Position numbers and translations under genes: made by a program | Notes under the pieces: model-generated | Databases searched by the model: none | Told to the model about the DNA's origin: nothing | The model's input: only the letters and a program-made list of their open reading frames with translations | Assembly: GCA_943354475.1 (NCBI GenBank) | Contig: CALRBT010000004.1 | Location: forward strand, 1 to 56,874 | DNA: 56,874 nucleotides | Direction of reading: 5' to 3' | From: Parcubacteria group bacterium | GTDB taxonomy: Bacteria > Patescibacteriota > Minisyncoccia > Phycocordibacterales > CALRBT01 | In this document: positions 36,631-51,659 of the stretch, piece after piece | How the letters are laid out: each line of letters begins with the position of its first letter | Position numbering within the stretch: the stretch's first letter is position 1

Positions 36631-36819
36631 ATGAGTGAAAATACATATCGCGTTGGAGAAGTCGCCAAAAAGCTCAACGTGAGTGTCCGTTCGGTGTTTC
36701 GGTATATTCACGATGAAAAGTTGAGAGCGACTAAAATTGGTTACTGGCGTGTTGATGAAAATGACCTCAAATCCTTTGTTATTGGAAGAACCAACGTAGG
36801 AAAGCCAATGAAAAAATGA
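36631..36819 (+). CDS. Small helix-turn-helix DNA-binding protein (excisionase/MerR-like)
   Basis: YRVGEVAKKLNVSVRSVFRYIHDEKLRATKIG-WRV pattern; ATG 36631; overlaps the hsdM start. Confidence 0.75.
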   Translation: MSENTYRVGEVAKKLNVSVRSVFRYIHDEKLRATKIGYWRVDENDLKSFVIGRTNVGKPMKK

Positions 36820-38270
36820 AAACTAAAGCTAAACCACAACCAACGAAAGATGCGCTCACCAAATCAGACATCAAGCGTGTCTGCGATATATTGCGTCGTG
36901 ATGATGGGGTCGGGGCAAAGGACTACATTGAGCAGTTTTCTTGGCTTCTTTTCTTGAAGGTCTTTGAGGGTGTAGAGGGTCAACTCAAGGAACTTGAAGA
37001 AGCGGAGGGAAGGAAGTACAAAGCCGTCATTGATACGGAATACCAATGGTCATCGTGGGCTAAAAAGGATTGGAAAGACAAAGACGAACTGGTTCACTTC
37101 ATAAATCAAAAGCTATTCCCTTATCTCAAGGCACTCAAAGGAACACGCGAGAGGGATAAAATCGGGGAGATTTTCCGTGAGCTTTCTGGCAACCGTATCC
37201 GTTCGCCCCACAACCTCCTTGATGTCATCGGCATTTTGGACAAGATAGAGAAACATCACTTTCAAGACACAAACTTACTCTCACAGGTCTACGAAGAAAT
37301 ACTACAAGCTATGGGTAGTGAGGGTGGTTGGTCGGGAGAGTTCTACACCCCACGCCCCATCATTCGTTTGATGGTCAAAATCGTTGACCCTAAACTCGGA
37401 GAAACTATCTTTGACCCGTTCGTCGGTTCAGGCGGTTTTTTGGTGGAAAGTTTCAATCAACTGTACGAAAAGTCAGCAAAAGATGTGAAAGCGTGGCGTA
37501 CACTTCAAACAAAAACATTTTTCGGACAGGAAAAGAAACCACTACCTTTTCTTATCGGTACAATGAACCTCATCTTGCACCATATTCTCGTCCCAAACAT
37601 CGTACGCTCTAATACGTTTATGGAAGACGTACACAATATGCCAGAGAGTGCCAAAATGGACGTGATTTTGACCAACCCACCTTTTGGAGCAGAAGAAAGT
37701 AAAGACGTTCAGAACAACTACCCTATACAAATAGGAGCTACTGAAGGTCTTGCACTTCAGTACATTATGAAGCGTCTCAAAAATGGTGGGCGCTGTGCCG
37801 TTATTCTTCCAGAAGGAAACGTACTTTTTGGTGGTGGAGCTATGGCTCGTATCCGACAGGAACTTTTGGAAAAGTTCAATGTGCATACAATCATTTCACT
37901 TCCACAAGGAGCATTCGCACAAATGGGTGCTGGTGTAAAAACAAATCTCATCTTTTTTGATAAGACGGGCTCAACAAAAGAAATCTGGTACGGTGAAGTA
38001 AGGGGAAAGTTTACAAAAAAGAAAACAATGCAGGACGGTAGCTTTGACGCGATTTTTGATAAGTGGAAGAAACGAGAGGTATCTGATAGTTCTTGGGTAG
38101 TTCCCGTGGAAACTATCAAACAACGTGGCTACGATATTTCTCCCAAAAATCCCACACTGGCTGATGCTGACGTGCTTCTTTCGCCAGACGCAATACTAGG
38201 AGAAATAGAGAAAAATCAACACGAGATTGATAACGTACTTCTATCATTGAAAGAGATACTCAAAAAATGA
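36816..38270 (+). CDS. hsdM: Type I restriction-modification methyltransferase subunit M
   Basis: GEFYTPR, FDPFVGSGGFL (motif I) and NPPF (motif IV, m6A). Confidence 0.93.
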   Translation: MKTKAKPQPTKDALTKSDIKRVCDILRRDDGVGAKDYIEQFSWLLFLKVFEGVEGQLKELEEAEGRKYKAVIDTEYQWSSWAKKDWKDKDELVHFINQKLFPYLKALKGTRERDKIGEIFRELSGNRIRSPHNLLDVIGILDKIEKHHFQDTNLLSQVYEEILQAMGSEGGWSGEFYTPRPIIRLMVKIVDPKLGETIFDPFVGSGGFLVESFNQLYEKSAKDVKAWRTLQTKTFFGQEKKPLPFLIGTMNLILHHILVPNIVRSNTFMEDVHNMPESAKMDVILTNPPFGAEESKDVQNNYPIQIGATEGLALQYIMKRLKNGGRCAVILPEGNVLFGGGAMARIRQELLEKFNVHTIISLPQGAFAQMGAGVKTNLIFFDKTGSTKEIWYGEVRGKFTKKKTMQDGSFDAIFDKWKKREVSDSSWVVPVETIKQRGYDISPKNPTLADADVLLSPDAILGEIEKNQHEIDNVLLSLKEILKK

Positions 38271-39487
38271 TTATGGAATTGAAAAAACTACAACTAGGCG
38301 AAATCTGCAACATCTCTGGTGGTTTTGGCTTCCCTCATTCACATCAAGGACGCAAAAATGAGAAATACCCATTTTACAAAGTAGGTGATATGAACACAGG
38401 CGGAAATGAAACGTATATGATTACGCACAATCATTCTGTTTCCGAAGGTGATATCAAAGCACTCAAGGCAAAAATCTTTCCTGCTGGTACAATCATTTTT
38501 CCAAAGATTGGAGCGGCTATTGCAACAAATAAGAAACGTATTTTGAGCACCCCATCAACAGTTGATAATAACGTAATGGTTCTCATTCCCAACGAGGAAA
38601 TGGTAACCACTAAATACCTTTTTTATTTCCTTCAGGACTTTGACCTAAAGGATTGGTCAAATAAATCCGCGTTACCATCAATCAGAAAAAGTGATGTTGA
38701 GAAAACAGAAATACGGTTACCGTTTACAGATGGAAAACCAGACCTTGCCGAGCAAAAACGTATTACTGACAAGTTGGATAAGGTTTTTATGGAGATTGAA
38801 AAGAGTATTGATAAAATCAGACAGAACAGAAAGTATGCAGGTAAAACTACCTATTCAGAGCTTCTGACTACTTTTAGCGATGAAAACTTGAAAACATACT
38901 CCCTTGAAGAAGTTTGCGATACAACAAGTGGAGGCACTCCATCTCGTTCTAACAGTGCTTATTATGACGGCGACATTTCGTGGTTGAAATCTGGTGAACT
39001 GAACGACAATCGCTCAATATCATCTTCAGAGGAGCATATTTCGGAGGACGCAATAAAAAAATCTAATGCAAAAGTATTCCCATCGGGTACGGTTCTTTTG
39101 GCTATGTACGGTGCGACTGTCGGCAAGTTAGGTATTTTGAGTGCAAGTGCTTCTACCAATCAAGCTGTTTGTGCAATAACTCCCCACAAAAACATTTTGA
39201 ATGAGTATATGTTTTGGTACTTATTTTTCTATCGTGATGAGTTAGTCAAAAAAGCGTTTGGTGGTGCACAGCCAAACATCAGTCAAACGCTCATTCGCAA
39301 ACTTCCAGTAAAAATACCCCTAAAAGATAAACAGCCAGACCTAGCCAAACAAAAAGAGATTGTTGCAAAAGTAAGTTCTATTCAAGAGAAGCAGGAAATG
39401 CTAACGGACTTGTTTTCCCGACAAGAAAAGTTATTTACATCACTTCGCTCGTCAGTATTGAGCCAATCGTTCCAAATGCAAACATAA
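38267..39487 (+). CDS. hsdS: Type I restriction-modification specificity subunit S
   Basis: Two TRD-like halves, each followed by a helical P...Q..I spacer (LAEQKRI, LAKQKEI). Confidence 0.9.
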   Translation: MIMELKKLQLGEICNISGGFGFPHSHQGRKNEKYPFYKVGDMNTGGNETYMITHNHSVSEGDIKALKAKIFPAGTIIFPKIGAAIATNKKRILSTPSTVDNNVMVLIPNEEMVTTKYLFYFLQDFDLKDWSNKSALPSIRKSDVEKTEIRLPFTDGKPDLAEQKRITDKLDKVFMEIEKSIDKIRQNRKYAGKTTYSELLTTFSDENLKTYSLEEVCDTTSGGTPSRSNSAYYDGDISWLKSGELNDNRSISSSEEHISEDAIKKSNAKVFPSGTVLLAMYGATVGKLGILSASASTNQAVCAITPHKNILNEYMFWYLFFYRDELVKKAFGGAQPNISQTLIRKLPVKIPLKDKQPDLAKQKEIVAKVSSIQEKQEMLTDLFSRQEKLFTSLRSSVLSQSFQMQT

Positions 39488-39492
39488 AATAT

Positions 39493-41949
39493 ATGCCATA
39501 TTCAGAAGACGATACAAGGGTCAAAATCATAGACCCACAAATACACGAGAGCGGTTGGAAAGAGGAACAAATCCTCCGACAATATGCTATTGCCGATGAC
39601 CGCTTCTTTGTAGAGGGCGAGGACTTCAAGCGTCTTCCTACTGCAAAGTTTGCTGATTATGTTTTGCTGTACAACAACGTTTCTATTGCCGTACTTGAAG
39701 CAAAGGCAGAAGACGAAGACCCTCTCAAACATTTGAGCCAAGCACAGGACTACGCAAAGCGTCTTGATGTGCCTTTTGCCTATATCTCAAACGGCAAAAC
39801 AACTTATCTTTACGACCGCCGAACATTGAAGACGGAAGAAGTATCAAGCTACCTTTCACCTGAAGAAATGTACGAGGCGTACAAAGAGTGGAAAGGATTG
39901 AGCGAGCAGAAACTAGACGCTCTCACATATCCGCTTTATGTTGCAGGTACAAAGCGTCCGCGTGCGTATCAAGAAACAGCAATAAAAAATACTGTTGAGA
40001 ACGTCGTCAAAGGAAAGAAGACCACCCTCCTTACGATGGCGACTGGTACAGGTAAAACATTCACGGCATTTCAGATTGTTTGGAAACTTGTGAAGTCAAA
40101 GCATATACATCGCGTGCTTTTCCTCTGCGACCGCATCATTCTCCGCGATGACGCATACAGCAGAGATTTTGAACCATTTGGTGAGGCGCGTTGCAAAATT
40201 GAGGGCGGTGAGTTCAATGCCAACCGCGATATCTACTTTGCAACATATCAAACCCTTTTCACTAATGACTTATACAAACAAATACCAGCCGATTTCTTTG
40301 ACCTGATTATTATTGATGAGTGTCATCGTTCTCGCTATGGCGACTGGGGTGAGGTATTGGAACATTTCCAATCTGCACAGCAACTCGGAATGACCGCTAC
40401 GCCAAAGCGTGAGGACAACATTGATGTATACGAATACTTTGGCGAGCCAGTATTTGAGTATTCTCTCGGACAAGCGATTGAAGACGGCTATCTCGTGCCG
40501 TACAAAATCTTCAAAATATCAACCAACCTCTATAAAGAAGGGCTAGACATCTCTTCGGCTGAAGAAGTTATTTACGATGACGAGATAGAGCCAGAAAAAA
40601 TAAAGGATTTCTATGAGCCATCAGAGTATGAGCGAGCCGTTACTATCCCTGAACAAATAGACCTACTGTCAAAGAAAGTGATTGAGGTGCTAGATAAAAC
40701 GAACCAATACGGCAAAACGATTATCTTCTGCGTGGATATGGCACACGCACAAGCAGTCAAAGACAAACTCAACGAGTTGAAAGGAAACGAGGATTATGCC
40801 TCACGTGTCGTAGCCGAAGACAAAGACGACCTTACAAAGTTCCGAGACAAAGAACGTGTGATGCCTGTTGTTGCTACAACCGTAGACCTTCTCTCAACTG
40901 GCGTAGATATTCCACACATTGAAAATATCGTCTTTATGCGCCCCATCGCCTCACGAGTATTGTTCAAGCAAATTATCGGGCGTGGCTCTCGTCTCTTTGA
41001 GGGTAAGGGCTTCTTTAGGATTGTTGACTTCACCAATGCAACACGCCTTATTGATGAATGGGATATTCCTACTGAAAAACCAGAACCGCCAGAGCCACCC
41101 GAAGAACCAATCGCACCGTACGACAAACTTGTTATGGGTATTGTGGTGGACAACAAAATGGAAGCCCCTGTCGTAAGTGCAATCGTAAAAGCGAAACTGG
41201 GACGCTGGGAAAAAATGGGCAAAACCGATGAAAACGGAATGTTCAAGCTCTTTGGCTTGCCATCAAACGACAAGGTAAGTATCAGCATTGAACACGCGGA
41301 GTATAAGAAGTTGAACAAGAAACTTGCGCCACATAAAACTGAAGACGAGACCCCGTACGAGTTTCGCTTGAAAGCGTGGAAGTCCGCACCGAAGAAAATC
41401 ACCGTCAAAGGTATTGTCGTTACGATTGATGAGGAAGTGGAGGTTGAGTTTGACGGTATGAAGCTATCGTATGCAGAGTACCGAAAATACTCAAAAGATA
41501 AGATTGCCGAAACAATCCATTCTTCGGATGAGCTTCGCGCTATCTGGCTAGACCCAGAAAAAAGAGAGAAGTTTATCGCTGACCTTGAAGCGATGAAAGT
41601 AAACATCACACTCATCAAGTCCATTGAGAACCTTGAAGACGTGGACGCTTTTGACATCGTGGCTCACATTGCTTTTGACGCTCCGCTACTAACTCGTGAA
41701 GACCGCGTAAAGCACTTTATGAGGCACAACGCGAAGAACATAGACCAGTACGGCAAGGAGATTGGCGAGGCAATCCGCGAGATTATGGAGAAGTACAAGA
41801 ACAGTGGCGAGGAAAATCTCTCCGCGCAGGCGTTTCTACTTCCGAATATGAATGCAAAGAAGGAGGCAATCCAGCAGAAATACCCAGAAGGTCTATATGG
41901 CTTCATGCACTCGCTTAAATCAAAGATTTACGCCGTTATGGCCTCATAA
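39493..41949 (+). CDS. hsdR: Type I restriction endonuclease subunit R (EcoEI-like) with an extra inserted domain
   Basis: ADY...VLEAK nuclease motif; MATGTGKT, IIDECHR, MTATP and QIIGRGSR helicase motifs. Confidence 0.92.
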   Translation: MPYSEDDTRVKIIDPQIHESGWKEEQILRQYAIADDRFFVEGEDFKRLPTAKFADYVLLYNNVSIAVLEAKAEDEDPLKHLSQAQDYAKRLDVPFAYISNGKTTYLYDRRTLKTEEVSSYLSPEEMYEAYKEWKGLSEQKLDALTYPLYVAGTKRPRAYQETAIKNTVENVVKGKKTTLLTMATGTGKTFTAFQIVWKLVKSKHIHRVLFLCDRIILRDDAYSRDFEPFGEARCKIEGGEFNANRDIYFATYQTLFTNDLYKQIPADFFDLIIIDECHRSRYGDWGEVLEHFQSAQQLGMTATPKREDNIDVYEYFGEPVFEYSLGQAIEDGYLVPYKIFKISTNLYKEGLDISSAEEVIYDDEIEPEKIKDFYEPSEYERAVTIPEQIDLLSKKVIEVLDKTNQYGKTIIFCVDMAHAQAVKDKLNELKGNEDYASRVVAEDKDDLTKFRDKERVMPVVATTVDLLSTGVDIPHIENIVFMRPIASRVLFKQIIGRGSRLFEGKGFFRIVDFTNATRLIDEWDIPTEKPEPPEPPEEPIAPYDKLVMGIVVDNKMEAPVVSAIVKAKLGRWEKMGKTDENGMFKLFGLPSNDKVSISIEHAEYKKLNKKLAPHKTEDETPYEFRLKAWKSAPKKITVKGIVVTIDEEVEVEFDGMKLSYAEYRKYSKDKIAETIHSSDELRAIWLDPEKREKFIADLEAMKVNITLIKSIENLEDVDAFDIVAHIAFDAPLLTREDRVKHFMRHNAKNIDQYGKEIGEAIREIMEKYKNSGEENLSAQAFLLPNMNAKKEAIQQKYPEGLYGFMHSLKSKIYAVMAS

Positions 41950-41969
41950 TAGGCCTTCCGTAGAAATAT

Positions 41970-42863
41970 TTGTCGGGAATTTTGAGCGGAAGAAGAGGTA
42001 AAAATGGGGATAACCACATTGTCCCAAAGCTTACATGCATGTATACTTTACGCATGCCTAATGCGCCCAAATTTGTACCCAATCTGTTCAGGAGCGATGC
42101 TTTCTTTATCGGGCTCTCAAAGTATGAAGAACCATTGCTCAAGCCATTTCACGATATGGTGAGAAGCCGTATCCACACCGTAGGCGATACTGCCATTACC
42201 TACCGAGTTATTAACCACTGGGCACAGAAAAATCTTCTGCCAGAGGGTTGTAAAAACTCAAATGGTACGTGGCACAAATTCACTACCGTGGAGCTTGCTT
42301 GGTTGCGTGTAGTTGTTCGCTTGAGGAAGTTGGGTCTATCGCTAGAAAAAATTGCCTCAGCAACAGAGCAGGTAATGCGTTGGGATAATAGGAGCCAATC
42401 CTACCCAATCTTTGAATACTGTCTTGCCTTGGCATTGGCAAGCTCCAATGACCCCTATGTAATTTTTCTATCAGACGGAACTGCCGATGTAGCGACTTCA
42501 AAAGATATTGAGGGTGCAAAAATTATTGCTGGGTCGCGAGACATGTCGCTGGTTTCTCTAAAATCAATCTTGTCTGAGCTGGGCTTTACTCCTGTTAATC
42601 CCGCTCCGCTCATCTCCCTTGAGCGAAATGAGGCTGTCCTTATCAGCAAGGCAAGGAGCGGTGTTAATAGTGAAATTACGGCTCACATAAAGGAGGGCAG
42701 GGTCGGTAATATTAGGAGAACAGTTTCCTACAGAGAGAACCCCTCGCTGGATGACATAAAGAAGGGCTTCAAGGAAAATGGCGGCTTTGGAGAAATCTTA
42801 CTCAAAGTGTCAGGGGGCGTAGTGCAATCTGCCGTTGTAAACCACCATGAACGCCTTTCTTAA
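41970..42863 (+). CDS. MerR-family helix-turn-helix protein
   Basis: TYRVINHWAQKNLLP...FTTVEL...LRKLGLSLEKI; true start uncertain (ATG 42039 or 42057 possible). Confidence 0.65.
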   Translation: MSGILSGRRGKNGDNHIVPKLTCMYTLRMPNAPKFVPNLFRSDAFFIGLSKYEEPLLKPFHDMVRSRIHTVGDTAITYRVINHWAQKNLLPEGCKNSNGTWHKFTTVELAWLRVVVRLRKLGLSLEKIASATEQVMRWDNRSQSYPIFEYCLALALASSNDPYVIFLSDGTADVATSKDIEGAKIIAGSRDMSLVSLKSILSELGFTPVNPAPLISLERNEAVLISKARSGVNSEITAHIKEGRVGNIRRTVSYRENPSLDDIKKGFKENGGFGEILLKVSGGVVQSAVVNHHERLS

Positions 42864-42955
42864 CCCTGCTATCAGCCTTAATGGCTGGGGCATTTATGAA
42901 TACGTCATTGCTATCAGAAAAGCATCTGGGGCACATCACACAGCTATGAAATACA

Positions 42956-43114
42956 ATGATTTCAGTTTCAGAGTACCGAAAGGTACTCAAAGACGACGAG
43001 AGCCCAGACGAGATTATACAGCGTCGTATAGCCTATTTAGAGGCCTTCTGCCGCAGTGTGGCGCGTATTGAACTACAAGCGTATGTCAAAGTCATCAAAA
43101 ATGAAACAGCATAG
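42956..43114 (+). CDS. 52-aa ORF overlapping the recombinase start (below the ORF-track cut-off)
   Basis: Translates as MISVSEYRKVLKDDESPDEIIQRRIAYLEAFCRSVARIELQAYVKVIKNETA; protein-like helical composition. Confidence 0.5.
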   Translation: MISVSEYRKVLKDDESPDEIIQRRIAYLEAFCRSVARIELQAYVKVIKNETA

Positions 43115-44741
43115 TCCGCCACAGTCACTTCAAGAGCTGAAAAGCTCGGGCGTTACGATTTACGGCCTTATTTATTGCAGAGTTTCGTCCGATAGACAGG
43201 CCACCGAGGGTCACGGCTTGGAAAGTCAGGAGCAACGTTGCCGTGAATACGCAAAACTAAACGGGTTCATCGTTGATAAAGTTTTTGCCGATAGCGCCTC
43301 AGGGGGTGGAGAATACACTTCACGAAAAAAACAGGTGGCACTACTTGAGTATGTAAAAGCGCACCCCAACAAAGTTTTCGTGGTCATAATTGACGATATT
43401 TCTCGTTTTGCGAGAGATGTGCAAGGTCACACACAGTTCAAGCTGCTTCTAAGGGAGCAGGGCGTAGAACTTACTTCTCCAAATTTTAATTTTGAAAATA
43501 GTCCCGAGGGGCAACTGATTGAAACCGTGATGGCTTCGGTAAGCCAGTATCATCGTACAGGAAATGCTCGCCAAGTTATCCAAAAACAGCTTGCTCGCAT
43601 GAACCTTGGCTGTTGGCCGTTTGCCTCAGTGCGCCCATTTAAAATGATGAAAGATGCAAACTATGGAAAAATTCTTACAGCGCAGTATCCCGACGTTGAA
43701 TATGCTAAAGAAGCCTTGGAGCGGTTCGCTAATGGCGAATTTCTTACGAAGGCTGATGCGTGCAGATTTCTCGCGGGAAAAGGCTATTGGAGGGACAACA
43801 GGCGCCCTGAAAAACATATTGATGCATTTACCTACTTGGCTAAGAGTATTCTAAACGCAGGGTGGGTAGAGTATACAAAGTGGGGTTTCAAGCCAATTGA
43901 GGGAAAGCACAAGGGCTTTATCTCTATGGAAACTTACGAAAAGGTTCAGAAGCGCCTAAAACGTGAGGGGTTAAGTAATCGTATACGTAAAGATATTCAC
44001 CCTGATTTCTTCGCTCGCGGTCTAGTTCTGTGCGATGGTTGCTCGTACCCATTCAGGGGAGCGTACTCAAGGGGTAGGACAAAACGCTATCCGTACTATG
44101 TCTGCCAAACACACGGGTGCCAATTTTATGGAAAATCAATTCGTAAAGATATTCTTGAAGGCCAATTCAAACAGCTACTTTCTGAAACCGCGTTGAAGGA
44201 AGATGTCGGCGACCTCGTTAGTATAATGTTTGACCGCGTTTGGAAAGATGAGGTTATCAATGTGAAAACTAATGAAGCCATTGTTGCTTCGCACAAATCA
44301 TCGCTTGAACATAAGCTAGAACAGCTTACAGAGGCCGTGTTTGGTGCAAAATCGCCTGCACTGAAAAAGATATATGAAAGCCAAATGGAAAGACTTGCAA
44401 AGGAGCTTGATAGCCCCGACCTTGCAAGCGTCGGGGAAATAGACTTCTCTGTACCTTATAGAACCGCTCTAGATAAAGCCAAGGGATTGCTAAAAAGCCC
44501 TTTAGAATATTGGGAAAAACTAGATGTACGTGAACAACATCGTCTTTTTTACTTCATCTTTGATGAGAAATTACCCTACACACCGAACGTTGGGTATAGA
44601 ACCGACAAAATACGAACAGCCATAAGGCTTTTTGAGAGCTTTGTGGCTGTAAGTTCTACTGATGTGGAGATGGGCGGAGTCGAACCGCCGTGCGGGAAAG
44701 TAGCTAGAATGCATCTACCGTGTGTAGCAGATTTGATTTAG
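43083..44741 (+). CDS. Large serine recombinase (integrase)
   Basis: Catalytic YCRVSS and DDISRFAR motifs; recombinase domain; zinc ribbon CDGC...YYVC...GC; coiled coil. Start is ATG 43083 or 43101. The last 24 codons are read from antisense tmRNA. Confidence 0.9.
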   Translation: MSKSSKMKQHSPPQSLQELKSSGVTIYGLIYCRVSSDRQATEGHGLESQEQRCREYAKLNGFIVDKVFADSASGGGEYTSRKKQVALLEYVKAHPNKVFVVIIDDISRFARDVQGHTQFKLLLREQGVELTSPNFNFENSPEGQLIETVMASVSQYHRTGNARQVIQKQLARMNLGCWPFASVRPFKMMKDANYGKILTAQYPDVEYAKEALERFANGEFLTKADACRFLAGKGYWRDNRRPEKHIDAFTYLAKSILNAGWVEYTKWGFKPIEGKHKGFISMETYEKVQKRLKREGLSNRIRKDIHPDFFARGLVLCDGCSYPFRGAYSRGRTKRYPYYVCQTHGCQFYGKSIRKDILEGQFKQLLSETALKEDVGDLVSIMFDRVWKDEVINVKTNEAIVASHKSSLEHKLEQLTEAVFGAKSPALKKIYESQMERLAKELDSPDLASVGEIDFSVPYRTALDKAKGLLKSPLEYWEKLDVREQHRLFYFIFDEKLPYTPNVGYRTDKIRTAIRLFESFVAVSSTDVEMGGVEPPCGKVARMHLPCVADLI

Positions 44742-45181
44742 GACTTGCGAATTTGACACATTTCGTCGTTGCTTCGCTCATTTGCTCCCGCAGAGTAGAT
44801 TCACCTACACTTTGGTCACAAGCCTCACTCGCGCCTAGAACTGTATCCAAATTCGCAAGTCCTGTTTAGAAATATTACGTAGAGAATATGCAAAACCGTA
44901 ATATGTCGATTCTCTTTATTTTGAATTACTCGCGAGAAACTGAGTAATTCTAGTTCCATTTTATTACACCCGATTCAACCTATGAAACTTCAGTTGATCG
45001 AACGCCACTTAGGCTAAAGCGTAAGTGGAAGCAAAGGTATTTCCCGTAAAGTACGGAGAAGCTACCGATTTTGCTTTTGAAAGTACGTTTGCACGTAGCT
45101 TGTTAAGCGTTTTTTAGGAAGGACGCTCACTTCCACACGGCACATAAAAGACTAATTTTCCTGTCGATGCCTGGCATCCCC
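44665..45181 (-). ncRNA. ssrA: tmRNA (about 517 nt, containing a palindromic insertion)
   Basis: 5' GGGGAUG pairs with 3' CAUCUCC-A giving G3:U70; T-arm GGCGG-UUCGACU-CCGCC; pk1 ggaag/cttcc and agcgt/acgct; tag ORF 45092-45009 = ANVLSKAKSVASPYFTGNTFASTYALA; next to smpB. Confidence 0.92.
44740..44863 (-). repeat. Palindromic repeat family, copy D (inside tmRNA)
   Basis: Perfect 16-bp arms aggacttgcgaatttg / caaattcgcaagtcct; core shared with copies B and E. Confidence 0.85.
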
Positions 45182-45182
45182 A

Positions 45183-45629
45183 TTATCTAGTTTTCAACGT
45201 TCGCTCAATTTCACGCTTGGAATCTCGTTTCTTAATCACTTCGCGTTTATCGTACTTTTTACGGCCGCGGGCAATTCCAATCTCAAGCTTCAATTTTGCC
45301 CCCTTATTATACACCGAAATTGGCACAATTGTCAATCCTCTCTGTTGCTCAGTTCCAGCCAATACTGCTAGTTCTTTGCGATTAAGAAGTAGTCTTCTGT
45401 TTCGGAGCGGATCGTAGCCCTTTGGAGCATTTGCTTGCTGGTAGGGAGGAATATTGGCGTTGATTAAGTAAGCTTCGCCCCCTCGTATGGTGACGTGGGA
45501 GCCATCGAGTGACCCAAGGTGGTTTCGCAAGGATTTTACTTCAAACCCAAAAAGCTCCATTCCGGCTTCAAACCGTTCCAGAATTTCATAGTTTAAATTT
45601 GCTTTCTTGTAGCTAACTAAGGCTTGCAT
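45183..45629 (-). CDS. smpB: SsrA-binding protein
   Basis: EAGMELFGFEVKSLR, PLRNRRLLL and RGRKKYDKR motifs; true start ATG 45629. Confidence 0.96.
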   Translation of the reverse strand: MQALVSYKKANLNYEILERFEAGMELFGFEVKSLRNHLGSLDGSHVTIRGGEAYLINANIPPYQQANAPKGYDPLRNRRLLLNRKELAVLAGTEQQRGLTIVPISVYNKGAKLKLEIGIARGRKKYDKREVIKKRDSKREIERTLKTR

Positions 45630-45751
45630 AATATGGTCAGTGTAGCATTTTTGAGCTTTAATTTGCATCCTTTTGATCTTATTTTTTCTTTAGAAAACGA
45701 GGTTCAAATTACCTAGCCATATTCCTAGCTTTGTGTATAATGTGCCTACTT

Positions 45752-45877
45752 CAGGACTTTCATAGGTAGCGCATTTCTTTGTTGCAAGCTCCGTTTGCTC
45801 CCGCAGAGTAGATTCACCTACACTTTGGTCGCAAGCCTCGCTCGCGCCTCGAACTGCATCCACTTATGAAAGTCCTG
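45752..45877 (-). repeat. Palindromic repeat family, copy E (ftsH leader)
   Basis: Arms caggactttcataggt / acttatgaaagtcctg (one mismatch); core tttgctcccgcagagtagattcacctacactttggtc identical to copy D. Confidence 0.85.
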
Positions 45878-51561: not shown

Positions 51562-51635
51562 CCACCCTTAGCTCAGTTGGTTAGAGCACAGAGCTTATAC
51601 CTCTGCGGTCCTTGGTTCGAGTCCAAGAGGGTGGA
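51562..51635 (+). tRNA. tRNA-Ile, anticodon UAU
   Basis: Acceptor CCACCCT/AGGGTGG plus discriminator A; D-arm GCTC/GAGC; anticodon stem CAGAG/CTCTG with loop CT-TAT-AC; T-arm CTTGG-TTCGAGT-CCAAG; CCA not encoded. Confidence 0.92.
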
Positions 51636-51659
51636 CTAAAATGTTTAAGTAGCGGAAGG

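What the first reader, a model, noticed from the sequence alone, without database searches (positions are those of the whole stretch)
44740..44863. Palindromic element inserted inside the tmRNA gene
Seen: tmRNA spans about 517 nt. Copy D lies between a pk4-like pseudoknot (agagaat/attctct, atattacg/cgtaatat on the minus strand) and the 3' strand of helix 2, closed by a perfect 16-bp stem. Removing it leaves about 390 nt, close to a normal size. Established: Rickettsia palindromic elements are known inside structural RNA genes. Inference: the self-closing stem lets the element sit in an essential RNA as a neutral extra arm, or it is excised to give a split tmRNA.
Basis: partly seen in the sequence, partly recalled or inferred. 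Interest (0 to 1): 0.65.

Follow-up and report, generated by a model that had tools for sequence, protein, structure and literature searches.

The report
Mobile hairpin element inside tmRNA gene
The ribosome-rescue RNA (tmRNA) gene of this tiny-genome Patescibacteria bacterium is about 125 bases too long because one copy of a dispersed, self-folding hairpin repeat has landed in a tolerant linker, a situation known from Rickettsia and here seen with an unrelated, apparently undescribed element.

Summary
Rfam finds one tmRNA gene on the minus strand (44662-45181, 520 nt). It has an intact tRNA-like domain, tag frame and pk4, and smpB lies directly upstream.

Between pk4 and the 3' strand of helix 2 lies a 125-nt block (44740-44864) closed by a perfect 16-bp stem. 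An alignment with 50 tmRNAs of the same order (370-482 nt) shows it as one clean gap block. It is a full-length member (123 bits) of a ~125-nt rod-shaped hairpin family:
- 37 copies in this 786-kb genome;
- strong covariation (28 of 35 pairs with compensatory changes);
- no Rfam match;
- present in about a third of the genomes sampled from the order.

The element pairs only with itself in the predicted tmRNA fold. About 210 related smpB/ssrA loci lack it inside the gene.

The host is a Patescibacteria bacterium, not Rickettsia, so Rickettsia palindromic elements are an analogue, not the family. The transposition mechanism is unknown; a Y1 transposase is absent.

A second tmRNA of the order (548 nt) carries a different hairpin repeat in pk3.

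The parts
44662..45181 (-). tmRNA (ssrA) gene, 520 nt, standard (not permuted) order
   Evidence: Rfam RF00023, 86.4 bits, model 1-374. Acceptor stem GGGGAUG/CAUCUCC has G3.U. The T arm GGCGGUUCGACUCCGCC occurs once in the window. It is the only tmRNA in the genome.
44740..44864 (-). Inserted hairpin element (copy D), RNA positions 318-442, in the same sense as the tmRNA
   Evidence: Model R1 gives 123.1 bits, full length 1-125. It forms a single gap block against 14 displayed relatives. It pairs only with itself in the MFE fold.
44848..44863 (-). 5' arm of the perfect 16-bp closing stem (AGGACUUGCGAAUUUG)
   Evidence: Exact match. Pair probabilities are 0.90-1.0 for 15 of the 16 pairs.
44740..44755 (-). 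3' arm of the closing stem (CAAAUUCGCAAGUCCU)
   Evidence: Exact reverse complement of the 5' arm.
44872..44915 (-). pk4, an intact H-type pseudoknot just 5' of the insertion
   Evidence: Read from the sequence. It is conserved in position and pairing in relatives.
44718..44739 (-). A-rich linker (AAAUCAAAUCUG) and start of the 3' strand of helix 2 (CUACACACGG)
   Evidence: cmscan structure line. It aligns with AAA..CTAC..GTAGA of relatives.
45009..45092 (-). Tag reading frame: resume codon GCA, ANVLSKAKSVASPYFTGNTFASTYALA, stop UAA
   Evidence: Read at the position cmscan aligns to the resume codon. The relative L031 reads ANALSKAKGILSPYAPAFALA.
45183..45668 (-). smpB, 161 aa, ends 2 nt before the tmRNA 5' end
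   Evidence: ORF. It is 55-71% identical to SmpB of Patescibacteria MAGs.
45753..45877 (-). Second copy of the element, upstream of smpB, same subfamily and orientation
   Evidence: R1 114.8 bits. 85% identical to copy D.
43056..44741 (+). Large serine recombinase gene, convergent with the tmRNA. Its last 80 nt overlap the tmRNA 3' end antisense, and its TAG stop (44739-44741) spans the flank/element boundary: T flank, A the element's last base, G the next.
   Evidence: Pfam Resolvase 1.8e-20 and Zn_ribbon_recom 6.9e-07. Translation ends ...VEMGGVEPPCGKVARMHLPCVADLI*.

Best explanation
One copy of a mobile, non-coding, roughly 125-nt hairpin element inserted into the single-stranded linker between pk4 and the 3' strand of helix 2. 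The tmRNA gene is otherwise normal and still in use.

Shown:
- The block is an insertion relative to every related tmRNA examined.
- It is a bona fide full-length family member.
- It lies in the tmRNA sense, so the transcript carries the better-folding strand.
- It pairs only with itself in the predicted fold.
- All other tmRNA features, and smpB, are intact.

Inferred:
- The element is transcribed as part of the tmRNA.
- Its 16-bp closing stem and rod-like body make it an insulated extra arm pointing away from the pseudoknot ring.
- Trans-translation therefore continues, and the insertion is neutral or nearly so.
- It survived because this linker is a permissive spot. Several relatives carry a small optional hairpin at the same place, and pk2-pk4 are dispensable in vitro in E. 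coli.

How the family moves is not known.
For: Insertion:
- The alignment of our tmRNA with 50 relatives shows pk4, then YTAAA, then one 125-nt gap block, then AAA..CUAC.
- Lengths are 370-482 nt in relatives against 520 here.
- R1 finds nothing inside the tmRNA gene at 51 tmRNA loci, 80 genome smpB loci and 80 metagenome smpB loci. Near-gene hits at the 80 genome loci are one copy in the smpB-ssrA spacer and one upstream of smpB.
- A pattern scan of 185,579 species genomes for the element's 3' motif followed by a T arm finds nothing.

Family membership:
- 123.1 bits, full length.
- 37 copies in the genome.
- 92% of cells paired against about 40% when the partners are slid; 28 of 35 pairs have double changes.

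Strand:
- G.U 101 against A.C 28.
- The forward strand is more stable in 30 of 33 copies; copy D gives -49.5 against -38.2 kcal/mol.

Insulation:
- No pair from the element to the outside in the MFE fold.
- The rest of the fold is unchanged without it.

Functional gene:
- Single tmRNA gene, G3.U, conserved tag, smpB intact.
- The genome is 98% complete.

Permissive site:
- Small hairpins at the same spot in L012, L014, L018, L022, L024, L026, L134 and L006.
- pk2-4 are dispensable in vitro (PMC3985003).

Precedent:
- RPE in Rickettsia tmRNA (PMC2229807, PMC1458961).
- A second case in this order: the G066 tmRNA of 548 nt.
Against: - There are no RNA data, so I cannot show that the arm is kept in the mature tmRNA or that the tmRNA works.
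- No close relative exists in the collections (best SmpB identity 62-71%), so the empty site is inferred from order-level homologues only.
- Copy D differs by 13% from its nearest paralogue yet keeps a perfect 16-bp stem. This could mean selection on this copy rather than neutrality.
- The genome encodes RNase III, and a quasi-continuous helix of about 24 bp is a plausible substrate.
- No transposase, target duplication or donor copy was identified, so 'mobile' rests on distribution alone.
Confidence: 0.6

Rival explanations
1. The hairpin is transcribed but then cut at its long stem by RNase III or another double-strand-specific nuclease, without re-ligation. The result is a two-piece tmRNA made from a colinear gene. 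The pieces (about 320 nt for the coding part, about 75 nt for the acceptor part) stay together through helix 2 and the acceptor stem.
For: - RNase III is encoded at C1:110181-110567, 120 bits.
- The stem has 16 perfect bp and continues coaxially through 5-bp and 3-bp helices.
- Natural two-piece tmRNAs consist of a coding piece ending after the pseudoknots and an acceptor piece held by base pairing, so a break at this site matches a form known to work (PMC3985003).
- RNase III has been proposed to act on Correia/NEMIS hairpin transcripts (PMC2229807).
- From my own knowledge, not checked here: 23S rRNA intervening sequences are removed by RNase III without re-ligation.
Against: - There are no RNA data.
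- No processing has been reported for the RPE-bearing Rickettsia tmRNA in the papers I could read.
- Bulges and internal loops can act as antideterminants for RNase III.
Confidence: 0.2
2. The inserted module has been put to use. Its conserved, asymmetric internal loops bind a protein or RNA partner and give this tmRNA an added property, or the highly expressed tmRNA serves the element as a vehicle for expression.
For: - The core motifs GUUC(G/U)AGGCG and GCAACAA(A/C)GAAAU are nearly invariant, while the stems change with compensation.
- The fold is strand-specific.
- The family is conserved across classes of the phylum.
- Copy D lies in the structured sense and is the second-best match in the genome.
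Against: - The insertion is unique among about 210 related loci and 185,579 species genomes, as expected for an accident rather than a selected feature.
- Most other copies are antisense to neighbouring genes (20 against 6), so the structured strand is usually not in an mRNA.
- No partner is known.
Confidence: 0.08
3. The insertion has inactivated the gene, and the tmRNA is a recent pseudogene.
For: - The Rfam score (86 bits; 52.7 with strict filters) is at the low end for the order.
- ARAGORN does not recognise the gene.
Against: - There is no second tmRNA gene in a 98%-complete genome.
- smpB is intact.
- The acceptor stem with G3.U, the T arm, pk4 and a conserved tag frame ending in YALA are all intact.
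- The low score is explained by the insertion penalty.
Confidence: 0.07
4. The arm is an assembly artefact, or a native lineage-specific expansion of tmRNA rather than an insertion.
For: - The genome is a metagenome-assembled draft of 16 contigs.
- No close relative is available.
Against: - Both flanks continue the tmRNA in register.
- Copies are at most 87% identical to each other, so a repeat-induced chimaera is unlikely to be this precise.
- The arm scores 123 bits against a model of the dispersed family, so it is not a private expansion.
Confidence: 0.03

Closest known systems
Rickettsia palindromic elements (RPE) inside the tmRNA and RNase P RNA genes (Ogata et al. 2002, as cited in PMC2229807; R. 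bellii, PMC1458961)
   Same: Both are dispersed palindromic repeats of 100-150 bp that fold into a long hairpin. Both occur in a reduced genome, with one copy inside the tmRNA gene that is presumed to be tolerated.
   Different: The phylum differs (Patescibacteria). Homology to RPE was not tested and none is apparent. Here no copy lies in frame inside a protein gene, the core rather than the ends is conserved, and the fold is strand-asymmetric. The position of the RPE within Rickettsia tmRNA could not be checked because the paper is not held.
Hairpin-forming bacterial MITEs: Correia/NEMIS, ERIC/IRU, RUP (review PMC2229807)
   Same: Size of 100-200 bp, a long stem-loop transcript, TA at many termini, location in intergenic spacers, and co-transcription with neighbouring genes.
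   Different: The terminal stem is not a conserved TIR; it differs between copies with compensatory changes. No clear target duplication and no parent IS were found. Many copies supply the TAG stop codon of the upstream gene.
Two-piece (permuted) tmRNA of alpha- and beta-proteobacteria and cyanobacteria (PMC3985003, PMC11915505)
   Same: If the hairpin were cut out, the break would fall between the pseudoknot region and the acceptor piece. That is the topology of natural two-piece tmRNAs.
   Different: The gene here is colinear (model 1-374 in order). No processing has been shown.
Group I introns in the tmRNA T-loop (PMC11915505)
   Same: Both are extra sequences inside a tmRNA gene that lengthen it beyond 500 nt.
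   Different: The site differs (pk4/helix 2 linker rather than the T-loop). The element has only 125 nt, no group I core and no Rfam intron match.
Intervening sequences of 23S rRNA removed by RNase III (own knowledge, not checked here)
   Same: Both are extended hairpins inserted in a stable RNA at a surface-exposed, permissive helix.
   Different: Those are excised and leave a fragmented but functional rRNA. Excision is untested here.
REP/REPIN elements mobilised by RAYT (HUH Y1 transposases)
   Same: Both are palindromic and strand-asymmetric, and both are abundant in intergenic DNA.
   Different: No Y1 transposase is found in this genome, and there is only a weak association across the order (66/99 against 109/201). 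The conserved part is the core, not the ends.

Membership tests
tmRNA (Rfam RF00023, standard one-piece form) | Covariance-model match above the gathering score over the whole model, in colinear order | tested here: met
   86.4 bits against 47, model positions 1-374.
tmRNA (Rfam RF00023, standard one-piece form) | tRNA-like domain with a G3.U70 acceptor pair and a T arm | tested here: met
   GGGGAUG/CAUCUCC with G3.U, and GGCGGUUCGACUCCGCC.
tmRNA (Rfam RF00023, standard one-piece form) | Tag reading frame with an alanine resume codon and a hydrophobic C-terminus, conserved with relatives | tested here: met
   GCA ... ANVLSKAKSVASPYFTGNTFASTYALA*; L031 reads ANALSKAKGILSPYAPAFALA*.
tmRNA (Rfam RF00023, standard one-piece form) | Partner gene smpB present | tested here: met
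   45183-45668 (-), 161 aa, adjacent to the tmRNA.
tmRNA (Rfam RF00023, standard one-piece form) | Transcribed, aminoacylated and active in tagging | not testable with these tools
Dispersed ~125-nt hairpin family of this genome (model R1) | Full-length match to the covariance model built from the dispersed copies | tested here: met
   123.1 bits, positions 1-125, second best of 37. Copy D was itself in the seed, but it is 77-87% identical to six other copies by blastn.
Dispersed ~125-nt hairpin family of this genome (model R1) | Conserved core motifs with a covarying closing stem | tested here: met
   GUUCUAGGCG and GCAACGACGAAAU are present; the stem sequence is unique to this copy and is paired 16/16.
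Rickettsia palindromic elements (RPE) | Sequence homology to an RPE family | not tested
   No RPE sequences or models were at hand.
Rickettsia palindromic elements (RPE) | Host in Rickettsia (or Rickettsiales) | tested here: not met
   The best SmpB relatives are all Patescibacteria/Paceibacteria-type MAGs.
Rickettsia palindromic elements (RPE) | Copies inserted in frame in protein-coding genes | tested here: not met
   All other 34 full copies lie between ORFs or at their ends (ORF calling was crude).
MITE in the strict sense | Conserved terminal inverted repeats | tested here: inconclusive
   The ends pair, but their sequence varies between copies with compensation; only a loose TAGRAY...RTYCTA pattern is seen.
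MITE in the strict sense | Target-site duplication | tested here: inconclusive
   TA is found at both ends of many copies, but it is also part of the palindrome. Copy D has CA...TA.
MITE in the strict sense | A related autonomous IS or transposase | tested here: inconclusive
   Only the Y1 (HUH) transposase was tested. It is absent in G000 and weakly associated across the order. Other transposase families were not tested.
Group I intron form of tmRNA | Intron in the T-loop with a group I core | tested here: not met
   The insertion lies 5' of helix 2. There is no intron match even at E<=10.
Permuted two-piece tmRNA | Circularly permuted gene order | tested here: not met
   The standard model matches in order 1-374.

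The most novel reading that the evidence does not exclude
The hairpin is removed from the precursor by RNase III, or by a nuclease that recognises the element's conserved core. This bacterium would then make a functional two-piece tmRNA from a colinear gene. That would be a second evolutionary route to split tmRNA, starting from a mobile hairpin rather than from gene permutation. By extension, the structured strand of this widespread Patescibacteria element family would be an RNA-level processing signal.
Probability: 0.15. Interest if true: 0.75.

Novelty: new member of a known kind. Interest (0 to 1): 0.45.

Why it matters
1. **Known phenomenon in a new setting.** Tolerance of a selfish hairpin inside tmRNA, so far described for Rickettsia, recurs in an unrelated reduced-genome phylum. 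It has happened at least twice in one order, at different sites.
2. **Limits of the mobile unit.** The tmRNA copy is the one place where the empty site can be inferred by homology. It shows that the mobile unit includes its own closing stem. This is useful for working out how this apparently undescribed, widespread family moves.
3. **Annotation.** Such insertions make standard tmRNA finders fail or score low, so some 'missing' tmRNAs in Patescibacteria may be annotation artefacts.
4. **A testable question.** The insertion sits exactly where natural two-piece tmRNAs are broken. This gives a simple test of whether a hairpin insertion can start the evolution of a split tmRNA.

Tried and rejected
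- **ARAGORN** found no tmRNA, so Rfam was needed.
- **Rfam** has no family for the element, even at E<=10.
- **Native arm shared with relatives:** rejected by the alignment and by the tmRNA lengths.
- **Close relatives with an empty site:** the best SmpB identity is 62% in species genomes, 69% in metagenome contigs and 71% within the order, so none is close enough.
- **Same insertion elsewhere:** R1 on 211 smpB/ssrA loci and a junction pattern scan of genome contigs found no copy inside another tmRNA gene.
- **Y1/HUH transposase as mobiliser:** absent from this genome, and 33 element-bearing genomes lack it. Rejected as a required partner.
- **Target-site duplication:** the flanks of 35 copies give no consistent direct repeat beyond a possible TA.
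- **Group I intron or permuted gene:** rejected.
- **Ogata et al. 2002:** the paper is not held, so the RPE's position within Rickettsia tmRNA could not be compared.
- **The 86-nt expansion in the G348 tmRNA (L131):** it is a cluster of small hairpins in pk2, not a rod element.
Full report
**1. The observation**

Rfam finds a single tmRNA on the minus strand of the window at 44662-45181. It scores 86.4 bits against a gathering score of 47, at E 3.5e-32, with model positions 1-374 in order. To do so it has to skip 125 nt. ARAGORN does not call the gene at all.

- an acceptor stem GGGGAUG/CAUCUCC with G3.U;
- a resume codon GCA followed by ANVLSKAKSVASPYFTGNTFASTYALA and a stop;
- an H-type pseudoknot AGAGAAU-CGAC-AUAUUACG-GUUUUGCAU-AUUCUCU-A-CGUAAUAU;
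- the linker UUCUAAA, then C, then the block closed by AGGACUUGCGAAUUUG ... CAAAUUCGCAAGUCCU;
- AAAUCAAAUCUG followed by CUACACACGG, the 3' strand of helix 2.

The 16-mer occurs exactly once on each strand, at 44740-44755 and 44848-44863. smpB (161 aa) ends 2 nt before the tmRNA.

**2. The host**

The best SmpB relatives (55-71% identity) are all Patescibacteria MAGs of the Paceibacteria, Nomurabacteria and related groups. The genome has 786 kb in 16 contigs and is 98% complete. It is the only representative of its family among the species genomes. The host is therefore not Rickettsia.

**3. The block is an insertion**

Fifty tmRNAs of the same order are 370-482 nt long; ours is 520 nt, or 395 nt without the block.

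In a MAFFT alignment pk4 aligns column for column with relatives. It is followed by YTAAA, a short variable linker and AAA..CUAC..GUAGA. Our extra 125 nt form one uninterrupted gap block. With the block removed, our sequence UUUCUAAA|AAAUCAAAUCUGCUACA matches, for example, L032 (UCUCUAAA-AACCAAAAAAUAUCCUACA).

Several relatives (L012, L014, L018, L022, L024, L026, L134, L006) carry a small 12-16-nt hairpin at exactly this place. The site therefore naturally accepts a helix.

Searches for the same insertion elsewhere gave the following:
- Model R1 finds no copy at 51 tmRNA loci of relatives or at 80 metagenomic smpB loci.
- Among 80 smpB loci from species genomes, R1 finds only neighbours of the gene. 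In L038 a copy fills the smpB-ssrA spacer and ends 3 nt before the tmRNA. In L039 a copy lies just upstream of smpB, as our second copy at 45753-45877 does.
- A pattern scan of 185,579 species genomes for the element's 3' motif 55-85 nt before a T arm found nothing.

**4. What the element is**

blastn, nhmmer and a covariance model find 13, 35 and 37 copies respectively in the genome. Five of them lie in the window.

Each copy folds into a rod:
- a closing stem of about 16 bp whose sequence differs from copy to copy;
- two short helices;
- conserved asymmetric internal loops (GUUC[G/U]AGGCG ... GCAACAA[A/C]GAAAU);
- a variable 8-10-bp helix;
- an apical hairpin.

On 29 full copies, 92% of cells are paired against about 40% when the partners are slid. 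The covariation score is 0.59 against 0.09-0.14, and 28 of 35 pairs show changes on both sides.

The structure is strand-specific. There are 101 G.U cells against 28 A.C cells. The forward strand is more stable in 30 of 33 copies, with means of -48.1 and -40.8 kcal/mol and p 6e-6.

Rfam has no match for the element even at E<=10. The model hits 100 of 301 genomes sampled from the order (68 of 190 genera) with scores up to 122 bits. It also hits 28 of 401 genomes sampled across the phylum, including other classes. The papers I searched describe no such element or tmRNA insertion in this phylum.

**5. Genomic behaviour of the family**

All other copies lie between ORFs or at their very ends. The tmRNA copy is the only one inside a gene.

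Where both neighbours run the same way, 20 copies are antisense to them and 6 are sense (p 0.009). In the antisense copies the element begins within -3 to +4 nt of the upstream gene's stop codon. In many cases the gene's stop codon is the element's terminal TAG.

The same holds at the tmRNA. The convergent ORF 43056-44741 runs antisense through the last 80 nt of the tmRNA and stops at the TAG at 44739-44741.

No consistent target duplication is seen. A Y1/HUH transposase is absent from this genome and only weakly associated with the element across the order (66/99 against 109/201, OR 1.7, p 0.046). The way the element moves remains unknown. 'Mobile' is inferred from its dispersed, clean insertions and its patchy distribution.

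**6. What the insertion does to the tmRNA**

In the MFE fold of the 520-nt RNA, no base of the element pairs outside it. The closing stem has pair probabilities near 1, and the rest of the fold is identical with and without the element. The element lies in the tmRNA sense, so the transcript carries the better-folding strand (-49.5 against -38.2 kcal/mol).

The gene is the only tmRNA in a nearly complete genome. Its tag resembles those of relatives (ANALSKAK...ALA in L031). It is therefore most likely still functional.

Two published points bear on this. [quoted passage not shown] Natural two-piece tmRNAs are split between the pseudoknot region and the acceptor piece (PMC3985003). A bulky arm, or even a break, at this position is therefore compatible with what is known.

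The genome encodes RNase III, so excision is possible.

**7. Comparison with what is known**

RPEs inside the tmRNA and RNase P RNA genes of Rickettsia are the direct precedent (PMC2229807, citing Ogata et al. 2002; PMC1458961 for R. bellii). The 2025 tmRNA database paper lists three gene forms (standard, group I intron in the T-loop, permuted) and mentions no palindromic insertions (PMC11915505). The present case is the same kind of event with a different element in a different phylum.

It is not isolated. The tmRNA of G066, from another family of the order, is 548 nt long. It has a ~156-nt AT-rich rod hairpin (z -8.6) in the pk3 loop, and parts of that hairpin recur at four other loci of that genome. 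Earlier notes of this scan report similar cases. I treat those as leads only.

**8. Verdict**

- Shown: an insertion of a dispersed hairpin repeat that forms a self-closed arm.
- Analogy only: the Rickettsia label.
- Open: whether the arm is neutral or excised.

This is a new member of a known kind and of moderate interest.

Noticed in passing
window 51562-51636 (+): tRNA-Ile with anticodon UAU (ARAGORN; Rfam tRNA 68 bits). No TilS-type PP-loop ATPase (PF01171) is found anywhere in the genome, so AUA is probably read without lysidine.
   Followed up: partly
window 36816-44741 (+): hsdM, hsdS and hsdR (type I restriction-modification), a MerR-like HTH protein and a large serine recombinase abut the tmRNA 3' end. 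The recombinase gene overlaps the tmRNA by 80 nt antisense. This looks like a defence island integrated at ssrA. No duplicate of the tmRNA 3' end lies in the window.
   Followed up: partly
L243:893-1440 (-), insertion about 1040-1200: The tmRNA of another family of the order (G066) is 548 nt long. It has a ~156-nt AT-rich rod hairpin in the pk3 loop, and partial copies of that hairpin occur at four other loci of that genome. This is a second, independent hairpin insertion in a tmRNA.
   Followed up: partly
L038:3454-3577, L039:2894-3016, window 45753-45877: Copies of the same element recur around smpB-ssrA in other genomes: one exactly fills the smpB-ssrA spacer, and one lies at the smpB start. 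In this window a copy lies 85 nt upstream of smpB.
   Followed up: partly
genome C1:110824-110948 and 19 other copies: The element's terminal TAG serves as the stop codon of the upstream gene in many copies, including the RNase III gene. Orientation is biased: 20 copies are antisense and 6 sense to co-directional neighbours (p 0.009). This bias is unexplained.
   Followed up: partly
genome C1:62277-62425, C1:74989-75142, C2:9838-9997, C2:35795-35967, C5:28269-28395, C3:47914-48027: Some copies carry an extra 25-50-nt hairpin module (ACCCAGUAGGUC...GAGG) at a fixed position after GUUC. This may be a second small element nested in the first.
   Followed up: no
window 44662-45181: ARAGORN misses this tmRNA, and Infernal with strict filters gives only 52.7 bits. 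Forty of 401 genomes of the order had no tmRNA hit at E<=1e-14, so some 'missing' tmRNAs may be interrupted or fragmented genes.
   Followed up: partly
L117:1427-1498 and 1501-1623: In another genome a copy of the element starts 2 nt from a tRNA gene.
   Followed up: no
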